A DNA stretch of 64,000 nucleotides from Candidatus Aminicenantales bacterium. Its GTDB lineage: Bacteria; Acidobacteriota; Aminicenantia; Aminicenantales; Saccharicenantaceae. Shown piece by piece: positions 13,101 to 19,100 of this stretch. A program made the position numbers. The stretch is from assembly GCA_050015275.1 (NCBI GenBank), contig JBEKBS010000006.1, positions 2,733 to 66,732 on the forward strand, written 5' to 3'. The first letter of the stretch is position 1; every line of letters starts with the position of its first letter.

Positions 13101-16100
13101 GGGCGACGTAGCGGTCGTCCCGGGAGAGGCTCACGATGCCGAGGCGCACGGTCCCGTCCGGGGAGAGGGCGTTGGGGTCGAAGAAGACCTCCGGCGTCCC
13201 GTCCAGCCCCTTCTGGATGTAGCAGACGGACTGGTTCTGGAGGCCGTCATTCTTGTAAAAGAAATAGTATTCCCCCGCCCGGAAAGGCGACGAGTATCGG
13301 GGGTAGTTGAAGATCTCCGTCAGCCTCTGCTTGATCTTCTCGCGGAACGGGATCTGGCCGAGGTAGCCGAACGTCACGGCGTTCTCGGCCTGGACCCAGG
13401 CCTTCACGTCCGCGGCGTTGTCGTCCTCGAGCCAGCGGTAGGGGTCGGCGACCTTGGTCCCGAAATAATCGTCCACCTGGTCCACCTTTTTCGTGGCCGG
13501 GTAGGACAATCTCGCCGCGCTTTTCTGGCAGGCGGCGACGCCCAGCAGGACGAACATCGCGCAGAGTATAAACATCATTTTTCTCATTTTCACTCCTCTT
13601 CTTATTTTCCGAAGTCGACGTCGTCCGGGAGCTCGTCGACGTCGCCGGCCGGGCCACAGGGGAAATGGGCGGCGAGCTTCCTCCCCGCCTCCTCGATGGC
13701 CCGGACGAGGCCCTCGGTGAACTCGCCCTTGCGGAAGTGCCCGGAGAGGATGGAGGCCAGCGAATCCCAGAATTCCTGGCCGACGCGGGCGTGGATCCCC
13801 TCGTCCCCGAGGACGACAAAGCGCCGCCGCGACGGGACGATGAAGAACAGGATGCCGTTCCTCTCCTTCGTCTGGTCCATCTTCAGCCGGGCGAAAGCTC
13901 TCTGGGCCACGCGCCGGACCGGCCCCCAGAAAAATGGGGCGACCGAAACGCGGATCTCGCCCGAGGTCTCGTGCTCGGCCTCGATGATCGCTCTTTTGAC
14001 CCGCTCGGCGTCGATCGTTCTCATCAGCCTGCGCCTGCTGCGGACCGTCATGCGCTCCCTCCTTCACCACGACCCGGACGCGCCGCCGCCGCCCGAACGC
14101 CCGCCGCCGCCGCTGAAGCCGCCGCCCCCTCCCCAGCCTCCCCCGCCGCCGCCCCGCCCCCCGGAAAAAAAGCTGAAAAGAAGCCACAGGGCCAGGGACG
14201 GATGGGTGACGAGGAGGATGAGGAAAAAAATGACGGCCACGACCATGAAGACCGAGCTCAGGGTGGACCTGGCCCGCGCCCCCCGGGGCGCGCCTTCTCG
14301 AGGCGGGCTGGCCTCTTCCCGGCCCGAGACGAGCGAAAGAAGGCCCGCAACCGCCTCAGGAACGGCGGCGTCCTGTTGGCCGCTCCTGAAACCTGGGACG
14401 AGGATTTCGTTGATGATCCGGAAGGCACTGGCGTCGGGGACGCGCTCCTCGAGACCGTAGCCGACCTCGATCTTGACCTTGCGGTCCCCGGCCATGATGA
14501 AGAGGACCAGGCCGTCGTCGAGCCCCTTGCGGCCCACCTTCCAGGCCTCGAAGGCCTTGACGGCCCACTCCTCGATGGCGACGCCGCCCGTGGTCCGGCC
14601 GACATAGACGAGGACCTGGTGCCCGGTCGCCTTCTCGTAGGCTTCGAGACGGGCATCGAGCAACGCGACCGTGTCCGGGGAAAGAAAACCCGCCTCGTCG
14701 GTGGCCCAGCGGGCCGGGGCGGGCGGGATCTTGATATCCTGGGCCGCGAGGAAGAGCCCCGCGCAGAGCAGGAGGGCGGGGAGGACGGCGGCCGATCGGA
14801 GGCGGGCCGGCATCAGGGTCGCTGGCCTAGAACTTGACCTTGGGCGCCGCTTCCGAGCCGGGCTGGGCCTTGAAGTACGGCTTTTCGTTGAACCGCGCGC
14901 CGAAGAAGCCGGCGATGAGGACGGTCGGGAAGCTCATCCGCTTGGTGTTGAAGGCCTGGGCCGCTTCGTTGAAGCGCATCCGCTCCGTCGCGATCCGGTT
15001 CTCCGTCCCCTCGAGCTGGGCCTGGAGCGTCTTGAAATTCTCCGTGGCCTTGAGGTCCGGGTACTTCTCCATCACGACGAGCAGGCGCGACAGGGCCGAG
15101 GACAGTCCGTCCTGGGCCTGCTGGAACTTGGCGAAGGCCTCGGGATTGATCTTGTCGGCCGAAAGCTGGACCTGGCCGACCTTGGCCCTGGCCTCTGTGA
15201 CGGCCGTGAAGGTCGACTTCTCGAAATCCGCGGCCCCCTTGACGGTCTCGACCAGGTTCGGGACAAGGTCCGCCCGCCGCTGGTAGACGTTCTCGACCTG
15301 GGCCCACTGGGCCTGGACCTTCTGGTCGAGCCGGACGAGCTGGTTGTAGGTCCCGCTGGCGGACAGCGCCAGAATGATGACCGCCAGGACGACGATGCCC
15401 AGGCAGCCGAACATGAATTTCTTGGTGGCCATTCCTGTCTCTCCCTTGCGATGTAGATGAATCCCGGAGATCCGGGCTCGTCCTCCATTGTAGGGTGGAC
15501 GGCCCCGAATATCAAGGGTATAATCGTCCCGTGGAACGGATCGCCATCCTGACGAGGGACTGCGCGGGGGTCAATGCCGCCATCCGGGCCGCGGTCCGGA
15601 CAGCGGCAACGGCCCGGCTCGAGGTCCTCGGCGTCCTGCGCGGATACGAAGGCCTCATCGACGGGGATTTCGTTCCCCTCGACCGCCGGTCGGTCTCGAG
15701 CATCATCAACCTCGGCGGGACCATCCTGAAGACCGCCCGCTCGGAGCGCTTCTTCACCGCCGAAGGCCAGGCCCGGGCGTTCAGGAGCATCGAGGCCCGC
15801 GGGATCGAAGGCCTCATCGTCATCGGCGGGAACGGCAGCCTGGCCGGCGCCCACGTCCTGGCGTCCGCATACGGGGTCAGGACCGTCGGCGTCCCGGCGA
15901 CCATCGACAACGACGTCAACGGCGTCGACGCCACGATCGGCGCCGACACCTCCGTCAACGTCGCCCTGGACGCCCTGGACAAGATCCGCGACACGGCCAC
16001 GAGCTTGGAGAGGATCTTCGTCGTCGAGGTCATGGGCCGGCTCTGCGGCTATATCGCCATGCAGGTGGCCCTGGCGGGAGGATGCGAGGAGGTCCTGCTC

Positions 16101-19100
16101 CCGGAACGGAAGTTCGACCCGGAGGCGATGTGCCGGGAGATCAAGGATGGCCACGCCCGCGGCAAGGCGAGTTGGATCATCATCACCGCCGAGGGGAAGG
16201 CCCACGCGTCGGACGTTGCCGCGGCCATCACCCGGGACACGGGGCTCGAGACGAGGATCGCGGTCCTCGGCCATATCCAGAGAGGCGGCCGTCCCACGGC
16301 TTTCGACCGGATCCTGGCGGCCCGCCTCGGCCACGCCGCCGTCGAGGCCCTTATCGACGGGAAGTCCGACGTCTGCGTCCACATGAAGAACGGGAACCTC
16401 GAGCTCCTGCCGCTCGAGACCGCCATCCAGCCCAAGGCCTGCGAGGTCTTGGACGACTATCGCCTCCTCAAGGTCCTGGCTTAGCGCTCCCGGCCCGTCA
16501 GCTCCGCCGGTCCGGCCGATCGATCCATGGGACAAGGCTTGGAGGACCGCGGGTCAATCGGCCAGGATATAGTCGGCGGCCAGGCTGCCTGTATAGAGGG
16601 CTGTCGGGACCCCGCCGAGGAAAAGCTCCGCGGCCGCATAAACGCCGGCCGCGAAGAGGCCGGGCACGGGCGTCCGGACGAGGACCTTTCCGGGCAGGAG
16701 GCCGGATCCTTCGGGGGACCACGTCCAGCCGGCGATCGACCCTTCATAGCGGCTGCCCCAATCGCGGTACGTGAGAGGCGTCGCGACCTCCTGGACCTCG
16801 ATGGCCTTCGAAAGGTCCGGGAGGATGGTCTCCACGGTCTGGATGAGGCCCCGGGCCAGCCGCGCCTTGTATCCCTTGTATCCTTCCTTCCTTTCCTTCT
16901 CGCCGGTCCGCCAGGCGGCGAAGCGCTCGTACGGAAAGCCCACCCTCAGGACAAGGGAGGCGCGGCCCGCCGGGGCCAGGTCGGGGGCTTTCCTCGACCA
17001 GAAACAGATCTCGATCTCCCGGTTGTCGAAATCCTCCGGGCCGCCGGCCGCTCCCTCCCGGATCTCCTTCCGGAAGAACAGGTGCTCGGCATGGATGGCC
17101 CCGAGGTCCGTCTCATTTGGCCTGACCCCGAGGTAGACGCAGAGCTCGGAACCCGTGTAGGGGACGGCCCGGATGGGGCCCAGGTCCACTCCCGGAATGT
17201 CCGCCGCGTCCAGGAGATCGAGGAATGTCGTCTTGTAGTCCGCGTTCGAGACCACCCAGCGGGAGTCGAGGGCCTCTCCCCTTGCCGTCACGACGCCCGC
17301 GGCCCGGCCTCTCCGGACGATGATCCTCCGGACGGGTTCCGAGAGCCTGACCTCCCCGCCGAGGTCCGTGATCTTTCTCCGGAGAAGGTCGGCCATCCCG
17401 TGGATGCCGCAGGAGGGGAACCAGATGCCCTCCTCGGCCATGATGTTCCACATCAGGGCGAGGTTCAACATGGACATTTCCGGCGGGCTCGTCCCCATGG
17501 ACCCCAGGAAATTCCTCAGTTGGGCATTTCCGATGACCCGTTCGAGAGGCTCGGCGGCCGGAGTCCCGGAAAGCCGCCGGACCTCGGCCGCCCGGGCTTC
17601 CGTCCCGGCCGCACCCGCTCGCGCTCCACGATCTCTCGACCCCGGACGAGGACCGAAATCGGGGTGCCAGAGGTCCATGTCCTTGGCCACGGCGATGGAC
17701 TTTTGGAGTTGTCCGAAGAACTCGCCGAGGCCGCTCTTCTCTTCCGGGAAGATCGCGGCGAGGCCCGATTCCATGTCGGGCAGGGATTGGGACATCATGA
17801 CGTCGAGGAACGGCGTCCGGAGCTCGAAGCCGTTCCGCCGGAAGCTGACCGATTCGGCGACGCCGGCCTCCTCCAGGAAATCGCGGACGCGGCCCGGAAA
17901 GCTGAACGAGAGAGGCCCCATGGGGAACGAGTGCCCGCCGCGCTTGAAGACGTAGCCCGTCCCTCCCGGGAGGAATTTTTTTTCGAGGACAAGGACCTTC
18001 CTCCCCCTCCGGGCGAGCTTCGCGGCGGCCATCAACCCGCCCAGGCCGGCCCCGATCACGATGACGTCCGTCATTGCTTTTATGATATCACATCCGGGGC
18101 GGATGACCCTCCTTCGTCTTAGGAGGAAGGGCTTCGGCGAGGTTGACGACGGGTGTCAGCCCGGGCCGCGTTCTTGACGGCCGTCCCCGCCCTGGGATAG
18201 GATTCTGTCAGGCCGAGCGTCCGGCGCGAAGAATTCAACCCGGGAGGACGGCGTGCCCGTGAAAATGAAATTCCCGACCCATCCGCAGCTGTGTCTGGTG
18301 GCGGCCCTCGCCGCCTTTCTTCTTTTTGCCCCGGCCTGCGCCGAAAAGCCGGCCGAAAAGACCGTCCCGCCGCAGGCCGCGCCACCGGGCCCGGCCAAGG
18401 TCGTCTATGCCGGCGTCCGTTCGTCCAAGTACGGCATCAAGCCCTTCCCCGGGCCGGCGGCCTGGGAAAAGGCCATCGGGGCCATGACCGCCTACTTCCC
18501 CGGGTCGGCGCCTTGCGGGATCTGGATCGTCGGGACGATGGCCAGGACGCCGCGGTTCGCTCACCTCGAATTCCCTTCCGGTGGGAAGTCCTTCCCCAAC
18601 GTGGAGTTCGAAGAGGCCGACAGGCACGAGCGCTATCTCAGCGAATTCGACAAGGCCGGGATCAGTGTTTTTCTCCAGGTGGAGCCGGCCAACGCGGACA
18701 TGGGCACTCTCATCGACCTCGTCCTCGGCCGTTACAAACACCATCGCTCGGTCATCGGCTTCGGTGTCGACGTCGAGTGGAACAGGACGTCGGACCACCC
18801 CGAAACCGGGATGGCCGTGGACGACGCCACTGCCCGGACCTGGGAAGAAAAGGTCAAGTCCCACAACCCCGCCTACCGGCTGTTCCTGAAGCATTGGGAC
18901 GAGAAATGGATGCCCCCGACCTATCGGGGGGACATCGTCTTTGTCGACGACAGCCAGATCTTCCCGGGGATGGAGCCCATGGTCAAGGAATTCGTCGAGA
19001 GCTGGGCCCCGGCGTTCTATCCCAACCTGGTCATTTTTCAGATCGGGTACAATTCCGACAAGCCCTGGTGGTCGAAGCTCCCCGACCCGCCCAAGGCGAT

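What the first reader, a model, noticed from the sequence alone, without database searches (positions are those of the whole stretch)
15495..16484. PFK-family paralog with a disrupted N-terminal glycine loop and GGNGS instead of GGDGS; F6P/catalytic motifs intact
The canonical ATP-PFK P-loop LTSGGDAPGMNAAIR reads ILT-RDCAG-VNAAIR here, two residues shorter with a single Gly. The Mg-ATP motif GGDGS reads GGNGS.

The TIDND (catalytic Asp), MGR and HIQRGG substrate motifs are preserved. The PPi-PFK signatures GGDDS and PKTIDGD are also absent.

The protein therefore fits neither ATP- nor PPi-dependent classes. Altered phosphoryl-donor specificity or a regulatory, non-catalytic role are both possible.

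A perfect TATAAT sits 6 nt before an in-frame GTG (15531) that would give the typical short N-terminus. This suggests a leaderless transcript.
Basis: partly seen in the sequence, partly recalled or inferred. Interest (0 to 1): 0.55.

Follow-up and report, generated by a model that had tools for sequence, protein, structure and literature searches.

The report
Phosphofructokinase clade with remodelled phosphate loop
This is an intact glycolytic phosphofructokinase gene from a lineage, spread across several uncultured bacteria and some archaea, in which the normally invariant two-glycine loop that holds the phosphate donor was replaced once by a shorter arginine/cysteine loop, so its phosphate donor has yet to be measured.

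Summary
The ORF is a full-length PfkA-type phosphofructokinase (Pfam PF00365, E 5e-97; about 50% identical to Bacillus PFK; TM 0.87). Its N-terminal loop reads T-R-D-C-A-G-V-N instead of T-S-G-G-D-x-P-G-M-N: G10 and G11 are deleted, S9 becomes R and A13 becomes C.

It is not a private lesion. All 171 distinct members of a monophyletic clade (62-100% identity) carry T-R-D-C-[AGS]-G. The clade includes Aminicenantes, MAGs labelled Omnitrophota and Thermoplasmata archaea. The R, D and C codons vary synonymously with no replacements. Every catalytic, F6P-binding and allosteric-site residue checked is invariant, and the adenine-pocket residues are largely kept.

GGNGS is not distinctive. Asn103 occurs in 42 of 113 canonical-loop relatives and in 91 of 120 sequences of the sister Omnitrophota group.

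The likely start is GTG 15531 (317 aa). A TATAAT 6-7 nt upstream of the start is conserved in eight relatives (TATACT in a ninth), which supports a leaderless transcript.

Best reading: an active 6-phosphofructokinase with a remodelled phosphoryl-donor loop, probably still nucleotide-dependent. Donor specificity is untested. I could not determine whether these genomes hold a second PFK. This is a new variant of a known kind, of moderate interest.

The parts
15531..16484 (+). pfk coding sequence, 317 aa plus stop, from the GTG start. A PfkA-type 6-phosphofructokinase of the 'TRDC-loop' clade.
   Evidence: PF00365 E 4.8e-97. NF002872 scores 357.8 against a cutoff of 253. Nearly all homologue gene calls are 317-318 aa and begin M-[KE]-[RK]-I. 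AF2 model with Foldseek TM 0.87 to Bacillus PFK.
15495..15530 (+). In-frame upstream extension (first GTG of the maximal ORF), probably not translated. It overlaps the promoter-like elements.
   Evidence: Relatives lack it, for example L007 has an in-frame TAG two codons before its ATG. The canonical PFK N-terminus is only 2-3 residues before the first strand.
15552..15569 (+). Remodelled phosphate-donor loop T8-R9-D10-C11-A12-G13. It replaces T8-S9-G10-G11-D12-x13-P14-G15 of canonical PFK.
   Evidence: Alignment to BsPFK and EcPfkA. T, R, D, C and G are invariant in 172/172 clade sequences. Codons vary synonymously with no replacement in 58 loci. G10 and G11 are present in 113/113 canonical relatives.
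15738..15740 (+). R70 (= R72 of BsPFK), the phosphate-binding arginine of the donor site.
   Evidence: Invariant in 172/172.
15825..15839 (+). G-G-N-G-S (= G101-S105 of BsPFK). Asn replaces the Mg-ligand Asp103. G104 and G108 of the adenine cleft are kept.
   Evidence: N in 171/172. N103 is also found in 42/113 canonical-loop relatives and in 91/120 of the sister group.
15900..15914 (+). T-I-D-N-D (T125, catalytic base D127, D129).
   Evidence: Invariant in 172/172.
16032..16040 (+). M-G-R (M169, G170, R171), which binds the F6P/transferred phosphate.
   Evidence: Invariant.
16272..16289 (+). H-I-Q-R-G-G (H249, R252), which binds the F6P 6-phosphate.
   Evidence: H, Q, R and G invariant.
15496..15524 (+). 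Sigma-70-like promoter TGGACG-17 nt-TATAAT. The -10 box ends 6 nt before the GTG start, which predicts a leaderless or near-leaderless mRNA.
   Evidence: Scan gives 10/12 matches, with 2 sites found against 0.1 expected in shuffles. TATAAT 6-7 nt before the start is conserved in L005-L009, L032, L041 and L047, and L022 has TATACT, while the flanks diverge.
15487..15515 (-). Overlapping divergent promoter-like site TTGATA-17 nt-TACAAT, facing the lemA gene (14827..15432, minus strand).
   Evidence: Consensus match only.

Best explanation
The gene encodes a catalytically competent, allosteric PfkA-type 6-phosphofructokinase. It is the ordinary glycolytic PFK of its lineage.

Shown:
- One ancestral event shortened the phosphate-donor loop from T-S-G-G-D-x-P-G to T-R-D-C-x-G. 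This happened in a lineage close to the Omnitrophota PFKs, which already carried GGNGS.
- The new loop has been under strict purifying selection since then. It spread among MAGs labelled Omnitrophota and Aminicenantia, and to Thermoplasmata archaea.
- The F6P site, the catalytic base D127, the residues that hold the transferred phosphate (T125, D129, R72, R171) and the PEP/ADP effector site are unchanged. The adenine cleft is largely kept (F76 and G104 invariant; Y41 and G108 nearly so).

Inferred:
- Chemistry is the standard in-line transfer of a terminal phosphate to O1 of F6P.
- The donor is still a nucleoside triphosphate (ATP and/or GTP).
- The R9 guanidinium takes over the phosphate contact normally made by the G11 backbone amide.
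- Asn103 coordinates Mg2+ or its water shell, as it must in the many canonical-loop PFKs that have Asn there.

In the window organism the gene is monocistronic. It is probably transcribed from a TGGACG-17-TATAAT promoter as a leaderless mRNA starting at or near GTG 15531.
For: Family and fold:
- PF00365 E 5e-97.
- NF002872 passes its cutoff.
- AF2 model pLDDT 79.5; Foldseek TM 0.87 and 48-50% identity to Bacillus PFK.

Conservation in 172 clade sequences:
- T8, R9, D10, C11, G13, N15: 100%.
- T125, D127, D129, R162, M169, G170, R171, E222, R243, H249, Q251, R252: 100%.
- R72, F76, G104: 100%. Y41 in 168/172. G108 in 153 (Ala in 19).
- Effector-site R21, R25, R154, E187, K213: 100%.

Selection: five Arg codons, two Asp, two Cys and two Asn codons are used with no amino-acid replacement at R9, D10 or C11, and one at N101, in 58 loci.

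Phylogeny:
- The clade is monophyletic, with no long stem branch, and is sister to canonical-loop Omnitrophota PFKs.
- Asn103 is present in 42/113 canonical relatives and 91/120 of the sister group.
- One clade member has TRDC with GGDGS (L043), so the two features are separable.

Donor signature: G104 and G108 are the ATP-type residues per PMC11609450.

Transfer across phyla and into an archaeal context (TFIIB, Alba neighbours) argues that the gene is functional on its own.

Context: neighbours are often carbohydrate genes, namely an SSF transporter, GH116, glgC and GH123.

Start and promoter.
Against: - G10 and G11 are invariant in all 113 canonical relatives. From my own recall of the crystallographic literature on E. 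coli and B. stearothermophilus PFK, the G11 backbone amide contacts the transferred phosphate, so removing it could impair or change donor binding.
- The protein scores below the TIGR02482 ATP-PFK equivalog cutoff (358.5 against 371.35).
- K/R77 of the ATP site is hydrophobic in the clade. It is also non-basic in about 40% of canonical relatives.
- No enzyme of this clade has been assayed, and the papers I found treat these PFKs as ordinary.
- I could not obtain model coordinates, so the position of R9 and C11 relative to the phosphates is inferred, not measured.
- I could not establish whether these genomes carry another PFK (PFK-A, PfkB or ADP-PFK).
Confidence: 0.55

Rival explanations
1. 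Active 6-phosphofructokinase whose remodelled loop changes the phosphoryl donor or metal requirement. Candidates are PPi, polyphosphate, ADP, strict GTP preference, or Mg-independent ATP use. Relative to an enzyme with Ser9 and Asp103, the donor site gains positive charge (R9 for S9, N for D103).
For: - The only clade-specific changes next to the active site are in the donor-phosphate loop: S9R, deletion of G10 and G11, and A13C. Y/F106L lies next to the adenine cleft.
- Small changes around the GGDG motif are known to switch donors in this superfamily: ADP versus ATP versus PPi in PFK-A (PMC11609450) and polyP versus ATP in NAD kinase (PMC3769651).
- The protein falls just under the ATP-PFK equivalog cutoff.
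Against: - The PPi determinants D104 and K124 are absent (G and A). The ADP determinant I108 is absent (G or A).
- The adenine-pocket residues F76 and G104 are invariant, and Y41 and G108 are nearly so.
- Asn103 predates the loop change and coexists with a normal loop in many PFKs.
- From my recall, PPi-PFKs keep the GG loop, so deleting it is not a known route to PPi use.
Confidence: 0.2
2. Non-catalytic derivative: a sugar-phosphate-binding regulator, or a regulatory subunit that has lost nucleotide binding. This would be analogous to the C-terminal halves of eukaryotic PFK or to plant PFP alpha subunits.
For: Loss of the otherwise invariant GG dipeptide, and Asn at the Mg-ligand position. 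Precedent: one of three PFK-A homologues of P. thermosuccinogenes had no detectable activity with ATP, GTP or PPi (PMC6543838).
Against: - Known non-catalytic PFK domains lose the catalytic residues. For example, the human C-terminal half reads 'GGFEA' and 'TISNN' or 'TVSNN' with an 'NVGAPAAGMN' loop (alignments).
- Here D127, T125, D129, R72 and R171 are 100% conserved across 172 sequences.
- There is no long stem branch.
- No partner PFK gene lies nearby in any of 87 loci.
- The gene moved alone into archaea.
Confidence: 0.1
3. Redox-switched PFK. The new invariant Cys11 in the donor loop makes activity sensitive to oxidation or thiol modification in these anaerobes. This is compatible with either donor scenario.
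For: Cys at position 13 (BsPFK numbering) is invariant in 172/172 clade members but occurs in only 2/113 canonical relatives. It sits in the loop that faces the donor phosphates (my inference from the alignment). The hosts are mostly anaerobic sediment, peat and subsurface organisms (record titles; papers).
Against: There is no partner Cys unique to the clade. C186 and C283 also occur in E. coli PfkA. I have no structural measurement and no experimental data.
Confidence: 0.15
4. Sequencing or assembly artefact, or a decaying pseudogene.
For: None beyond the unusual loop.
Against: The identical protein is found on 22 independent contigs. The same loop is found in 56 GTDB species genomes and in all of the 120 best metagenomic clusters whose sequence covers the loop. 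The reading frame is intact with strong purifying selection.
Confidence: 0.01

Closest known systems
Bacterial allosteric ATP-dependent 6-phosphofructokinase PfkA (B. stearothermophilus 4PFK/6PFK, E. coli 1PFK; 'short 40 kDa' group 1 / clade B1)
   Same: Same fold (TM 0.87) at 45-50% identity and the same length. F6P site, catalytic TIDND, R72, R171, G104/G108 adenine cleft and the PEP/ADP effector site (R21, R25, R154, E187, K213) are the same.
   Different: The loop T-S-G-G-D-x-P-G becomes T-R-D-C-x-G: two residues shorter, no GG, with a new Arg and Cys. D103 becomes N. K/R77 is hydrophobic. It scores below the TIGR02482 cutoff.
Canonical-loop PFKs of Candidatus Omnitrophota (for example L062 / P0299 and 119 relatives)
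   Same: Nearest sister group in the NJ tree, 54-59% identical. They already carry GGNG[ST] in 91/120 sequences and W216.
   Different: They keep T-[TA]-G-G-D-A-P-G-M-N. The window's clade differs by the single loop remodelling plus a few signature substitutions: Y/F106L, T133V, T145V, A186C.
PPi-dependent PFK-A (PFP), signature GG(D/E)D(S/T) and K124
   Same: Same superfamily and F6P site. Weak HMM matches (114 bits against a cutoff of 550).
   Different: It lacks D104 and K124 (G and A here).
ADP-dependent PFK-A of cyanobacteria (Sll1196/Sll0745; PMC11609450)
   Same: A precedent that a subtle change at the donor site of a 'short' PFK-A redefines donor specificity within an otherwise conserved enzyme.
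   Different: The signature is GGDGSxxI with Ile at position 108. The clade here has G/A108 and an intact effector site.
Non-catalytic PFK-derived domains (C-terminal half of eukaryotic PFK-1)
   Same: They also depart from the TSGGD loop ('NVGAPAAGMN' in the human enzyme).
   Different: Those domains keep the loop length but lose GGDGS, TIDND and the catalytic Asp. The clade here keeps all catalytic residues.

Membership tests
PFK-A superfamily (Pfam PF00365) | Significant match to the PFK domain over its full length, and the PfkA fold | tested here: met
   E 4.8e-97, profile positions 2-277 of 277. Foldseek TM 0.87 to 4a3s/3u39/6pfk.
ATP-dependent PfkA (NCBIfam) | Score above the curated cutoff of the equivalog model TIGR02482 (371.35 bits) | tested here: not met
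   358.5 bits, 13 bits short. The broader subfamily model NF002872 is met (357.8 against 253).
ATP-dependent PfkA | N-terminal phosphate loop T-S-G-G-D-x-P-G-x-N, with G10-G11 | tested here: not met
   T-R-D-C-A-G-V-N, with G10 and G11 deleted. GG is present in 113/113 canonical relatives.
ATP-dependent PfkA | Donor signature GGDGSxxG (PMC11609450): G104 and G108 form the adenine cleft | tested here: inconclusive
   G-G-N-G-S-L-A-G: G104, S105 and G108 are present, and D103 is Asn. Asn103 is common in canonical-loop PFKs (42/113), so the deviation is probably tolerated, but no such enzyme's kinetics were found.
ATP-dependent PfkA | Catalytic base D127 within T-I-D-N-D, plus R72 and R171 | tested here: met
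   All invariant in 172 clade sequences.
ATP-dependent PfkA | F6P-binding residues R162, R243, H249, R252, E222, M169 | tested here: met
   All invariant.
ATP-dependent PfkA | Allosteric PEP/ADP effector site (R21, R25, R154, E187, K213) | tested here: met
   All invariant.
ATP-dependent PfkA | MgATP-dependent phosphorylation of F6P | not testable with these tools
   Needs an enzyme assay.
PPi-dependent PFK-A | GG(D/E)D(S/T) with Asp104, and Lys124 before TIDND | tested here: not met
   G104 and A124. PPi models score 77-114 bits against cutoffs of 550-588.
ADP-dependent PFK-A | GGDGSxxI (Ile108) and a blocked effector site | tested here: not met
   G108 (153) or A108 (19) of 172. The effector site is intact.
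Non-catalytic PFK-like domains | Loss of the catalytic Asp127/TIDND and of GGDGS | tested here: not met
   TIDND is invariant, and GGNGS retains the G-G-x-G-S frame.

The most novel reading that the evidence does not exclude
The TRDC-loop clade is a functionally distinct subclass of PFK-A. The GG anion hole, invariant in all 113 canonical relatives examined here, has been replaced by an Arg/Cys loop. That gives a different phosphoryl-donor or metal dependence, for example GTP, PPi or polyP use, or Mg-sparing ATP use. It may also add thiol-based redox control of glycolysis. The trait would have been advantageous enough to spread horizontally among anaerobic Omnitrophota and Aminicenantia, and into Thermoplasmata archaea.
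Probability: 0.25. Interest if true: 0.75.

Novelty: new variant of a known kind. Interest (0 to 1): 0.5.

Why it matters
PFK is the textbook control point of glycolysis. Its donor specificity (ATP, PPi and, since 2024, ADP) is routinely predicted from a few motifs when the metabolism of uncultured microbes is reconstructed.

This clade is annotated everywhere as an ordinary ATP-PFK. Yet it lacks the GG dipeptide that was invariant in every canonical relative examined. It is abundant in peat, sediment and subsurface Aminicenantes and in MAGs labelled Omnitrophota, and it also occurs in Thermoplasmata archaea.

If the enzyme is a normal ATP-PFK, the GG loop is dispensable and an Arg side chain can replace it. 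That would be a useful lesson for motif-based annotation and enzyme design. If the donor or the regulation differs, the energy yield assigned to glycolysis in these widespread anaerobes would need revising, and PFK-A would gain another functional subclass. Either outcome can be tested directly with one recombinant protein.

The conserved TATAAT-6 nt-start arrangement also offers a concrete candidate for leaderless translation from a GTG or ATG start in Aminicenantia.

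Tried and rejected
- **Alternative gap placement.** MAFFT and HMMER both place the gap at G10-G11. The 'TRDCGG' subvariant (45/172) aligns its GG with P14-G15, not with G10-G11.

- **GGNGS as evidence of lost Mg binding.** Rejected after finding Asn103 in 42/113 canonical relatives and 91/120 of the sister group.

- **Second PFK.** There is no further PFK-A ORF in the 64-kb window or in 87 loci, 1.45 Mb in total. 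Whole genomes could not be scanned with these tools. The single genome-contig scan returned no assembly holding both a variant and a canonical copy among its best 80 loci. This is not exhaustive and would miss PfkB and ADP-PFK types.

- **Literature.** Searches on Aminicenantes, Saccharicenans, Omnitrophota and Thermoprofundales with PFK terms found no mention of the variant loop. The Saccharicenans BY38 genome paper is not held. A search for Asp103/Gly11 mutagenesis papers found nothing usable.

- **Representative library.** At 50% clustering the clade is represented only by a 258-aa fragment (P0126), so that search mainly served to show that the loop is absent elsewhere. Cluster names gave little taxonomy.

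- **PDB search with a recalled (unverified) M. tuberculosis PfkA sequence, to print PPi-PFK loops.** Only eukaryotic alignments were printed.

- **Intrinsic terminator downstream of pfk.** There is no significant structure (z = +1.0).

- **Gene neighbourhood as a functional clue.** Neighbours differ between sub-lineages, so there is no conserved operon.

- **Three-dimensional placement of R9 and C11.** The structure tool returns no coordinates, so this was not measurable.

Full report
**Observation**

The ORF 15495..16484 (+) is real. It is a full-length phosphofructokinase: Pfam PF00365 at E 4.8e-97, covering profile positions 2-277 of 277.

NCBIfam places it in the ATP-PFK subfamily NF002872 (357.8 bits, cutoff 253). 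It falls just under the equivalog model TIGR02482 (358.5 against 371.35). PPi-PFK models score far below their cutoffs.

An AlphaFold2 model (mean pLDDT 79.5) superposes on B. subtilis, B. stearothermophilus and E. coli PFK with TM 0.83-0.88 at 45-50% identity.

I checked my recalled BsPFK and EcPfkA sequences against PDB chains 3u39_A/6pfk and 1pfk_A. They are identical, so classical residue numbering can be used.

- HMMER and MAFFT agree that the loop T8-S9-G10-G11-D12-x13-P14-G15-M16-N17 is replaced by T-R-D-C-A-G-V-N. G10 and G11 are deleted, S9 becomes R and A/S13 becomes C.
- GGDGS reads GGNGS.
- TIDND, MGR and HIQRGG are intact.
- Positions 104 and 124 are G and A, not the D and K of PPi-PFKs.

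**Not a private lesion**

Every one of the 120 best metagenomic homologues (68-100% identity) whose sequence covers the loop carries T-R-D-C-[AG]-G and GGNG[ST]. Their source names are Aminicenantes, Saccharicenans and Acidobacteriota.

In one-genome-per-species GTDB contigs, 56 of the best 80 loci carry the loop, at 62-95% identity. The break is sharp: every locus at or below 59% identity has the canonical GGD loop (T/C-S/T-G-G-D).

Across 171 distinct clade sequences plus the window protein:

- The loop residues T8, R9, D10, C11, G13 and N15 are invariant, and N101 is present in 171 of 172.
- The catalytic and phosphate-holding residues T125, D127, D129, R72 and R171 are invariant.
- The F6P-site residues R162, M169, G170, E222, R243, H249, Q251 and R252 are invariant.
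- The effector-site residues R21, R25, R154, E187 and K213 are invariant.
- In the adenine pocket, F76 and G104 are invariant, Y41 is present in 168 and G108 in 153 (Ala in 19).

At the DNA level Arg9 uses five codons from both codon families. Asp10, Cys11 and Asn101 each use both of their codons. There are no amino-acid replacements at R9, D10 or C11 in 58 distinct loci, and one (N to D) at position 101. That is strong purifying selection on the new loop, not shared recent ancestry.

**Where the variant came from**

Among the 150 best representatives of a 1.84-billion-protein library, only one fragment (P0126) has the TRDC loop.

An NJ tree, without support values, makes the TRDC sequences monophyletic, with no long stem branch. 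Their sister is the group of canonical-loop PFKs from MAGs labelled Candidatus Omnitrophota.

A search seeded with one such sister (L062) returned 120 relatives. Every one that carries a source name is Omnitrophota or Omnitrophica. Of the 120, 119 keep a GGD loop (mostly T-[TA]-G-G-D-A-P-G-M-N; one has an unrelated N-terminus), and 91 carry GGNG[ST].

So Asn103 predates the loop change. Among 113 canonical-loop relatives, position 103 is D in 62, N in 42, S in 5 and E in 4. One TRDC member has reverted to GGDGS (L043). The GGNGS half of the finding is therefore ordinary natural variation.

Compared with the 113 canonical sequences, the clade-specific signature is S9R, deletion of G10 and G11, A13C, Y/F106L, T133V, T145V, A186C and M283C. 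The last two Cys also occur in E. coli PfkA.

**Distribution**

Besides Aminicenantes and Saccharicenans, the loop occurs in many MAGs labelled Omnitrophota and in five labelled Thermoplasmata archaeon. I did not verify these labels.

One variant-bearing contig has TFIIB, Alba and NYN neighbours, which is a genuinely archaeal context. This fits a published inference that Thermoprofundales acquired a bacterial pfk (PMC9287336).

Neighbourhoods differ between sub-lineages:

- LemA and an FAD oxidoreductase in the window.
- An SSF transporter and a BcrAD-like protein in Saccharicenans.
- GH116 and a GGDEF protein in another Aminicenantes.

There is no conserved operon. No second PFK-A ORF occurs in the window or in any of 87 loci, 1.45 Mb in total.

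**Interpretation**

Known non-catalytic PFK derivatives lose the catalytic residues. The C-terminal halves of human PFK, for example, read GGFEA and TISNN or TVSNN. Here every residue that touches F6P or the transferred phosphate is invariant, even across cross-domain transfer. I therefore take the protein to be an active 6-phosphofructokinase.

On the published donor signatures (ATP GGDGSxxG, ADP GGDGSxxI, PPi GG[DE]D[ST]; PMC11609450) the clade has the ATP-type G104 and G108, and an intact adenine pocket. A nucleoside triphosphate is therefore the most likely donor.

The rest is inference from the alignment plus my recall of the PFK crystal structures:

- The G11 backbone amide normally contacts the donor/transferred phosphate.
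- In the shortened loop the invariant Arg9 side chain is positioned to supply that contact.
- Asn103 can still ligate Mg2+ or its waters.

Relative to an enzyme with Ser9 and Asp103, the donor site is more positive, and an invariant Cys sits in the loop. This leaves room for a changed donor or metal dependence, or for thiol-based regulation. Small changes near the GGDG motif are known to switch donors in this superfamily (PMC11609450; PMC3769651). One natural PFK-A homologue is known with no detectable activity (PMC6543838). The rivals therefore cannot be dismissed without an assay.

**Start codon and transcript**

Nearly all homologues are called at 317-318 aa and begin M-[KE]-[RK]-I, two or three residues before the first strand, as in BsPFK. 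That corresponds to GTG 15531.

The 12-codon extension from GTG 15495 is not conserved. In L007 an in-frame TAG lies two codons before the start.

A sigma-70-like site, TGGACG-17 nt-TATAAT (15496-15524), ends 6 nt before GTG 15531. The scan found 2 sites against 0.1 expected in shuffles.

TATAAT 6-7 nt before the start codon recurs in L005-L009, L032, L041 and L047, and as TATACT in L022. The surrounding sequence has diverged in all of these. This supports a leaderless or near-leaderless mRNA in this sub-lineage.

The Saccharicenans group instead has a conserved TCTGGTAATATCA about 35 nt upstream, implying a short leader.

A weak AAGGG lies 12 nt before the GTG, so a leadered alternative is not excluded. 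I found no terminator-like structure downstream.

**Verdict**

- The gene is not shown to be a paralogue.
- GGNGS is commonplace.
- The enzyme resembles ATP-PFKs in every respect except the phosphate loop.
- The loop remodelling is real and ancient. It is strictly conserved, spread horizontally, and not described in the literature I could search.

I class this as a new variant of a known kind, with moderate interest (0.5). About one chance in four that it marks a functionally distinct PFK-A subclass.

Noticed in passing
L087 (contig ERZ27247850 k141_3127447), genes around 7001-7954; also L031, L037, L039, L043, L046: The same TRDC-loop PFK sits in an archaeal context (TFIIB, Alba and NYN neighbours). 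It also occurs in five GTDB genomes titled Thermoplasmata or Thermoplasmatales archaeon. This indicates transfer of this bacterial pfk variant across domains.
   Followed up: partly
window 15487-15524: Two overlapping, divergently oriented promoter-like sites share one small AT-richer patch. The plus-strand site is TGGACG-17-TATAAT (for pfk) and the minus-strand site is TTGATA-17-TACAAT (for lemA). The patch lies in the 98-bp lemA-pfk intergenic region.
   Followed up: partly
L010, L012-L019, L021, L065 (about 35 nt upstream of the pfk start): The Saccharicenans-group loci share a conserved TCTGGTAATATCA element upstream of pfk. The tblastn match begins one codon after an ATG. These relatives therefore seem to use a short leader, unlike the window's sub-lineage.
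   Followed up: no
L043 (MUGC01000004.1, 'Thermoplasmata archaeon M9B1D'): This is the only clade member with the TRDC loop combined with GGDGS (Asp103). It shows that the loop deletion and the D103N change are separable.
   Followed up: no
L049 and L057 (both from assembly CAZBLX01): One MAG carries two TRDC-type pfk copies, 64% and 63% identical to the window protein. This is either a real duplication or a mixed bin.
   Followed up: no
window 13602-15432 (minus strand): A LemA gene (14827..15432) is followed by two TPM-domain genes (14064..14813 and 13602..14051) and a prolyl oligopeptidase S9 (stop near 11464). This block lies upstream of pfk in all four contigs that carry the identical protein.
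   Followed up: no
window 20341-23897: glgC-like glucose-1-phosphate adenylyltransferase (20341..21615) and a GH123 glycosidase (21642..23897) lie about 4-5 kb downstream of pfk. glgC, followed by the same ABC-transporter and AhpC-TSA genes, also lies near pfk in a 73%-identical Aminicenantes relative (L086).
   Followed up: no
window 15072-16535 (minus strand) and 11557-14460 (plus strand): Very long ORFs (487 and 967 aa) run antisense to, or overlap, the real genes. They have Arg/Pro/Gly-rich translations typical of spurious ORFs in high-GC DNA.
   Followed up: no
L009 (DATKJS01, 'Terriglobales bacterium'); L011, L012, L014 and others ('uncultured Eubacteriales' or 'Planctomycetia'): Several record titles look taxonomically inconsistent with the PFK tree, where these sequences nest among Aminicenantes- or Omnitrophota-labelled sequences. 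Submitter labels in this collection should not be taken at face value.
   Followed up: no
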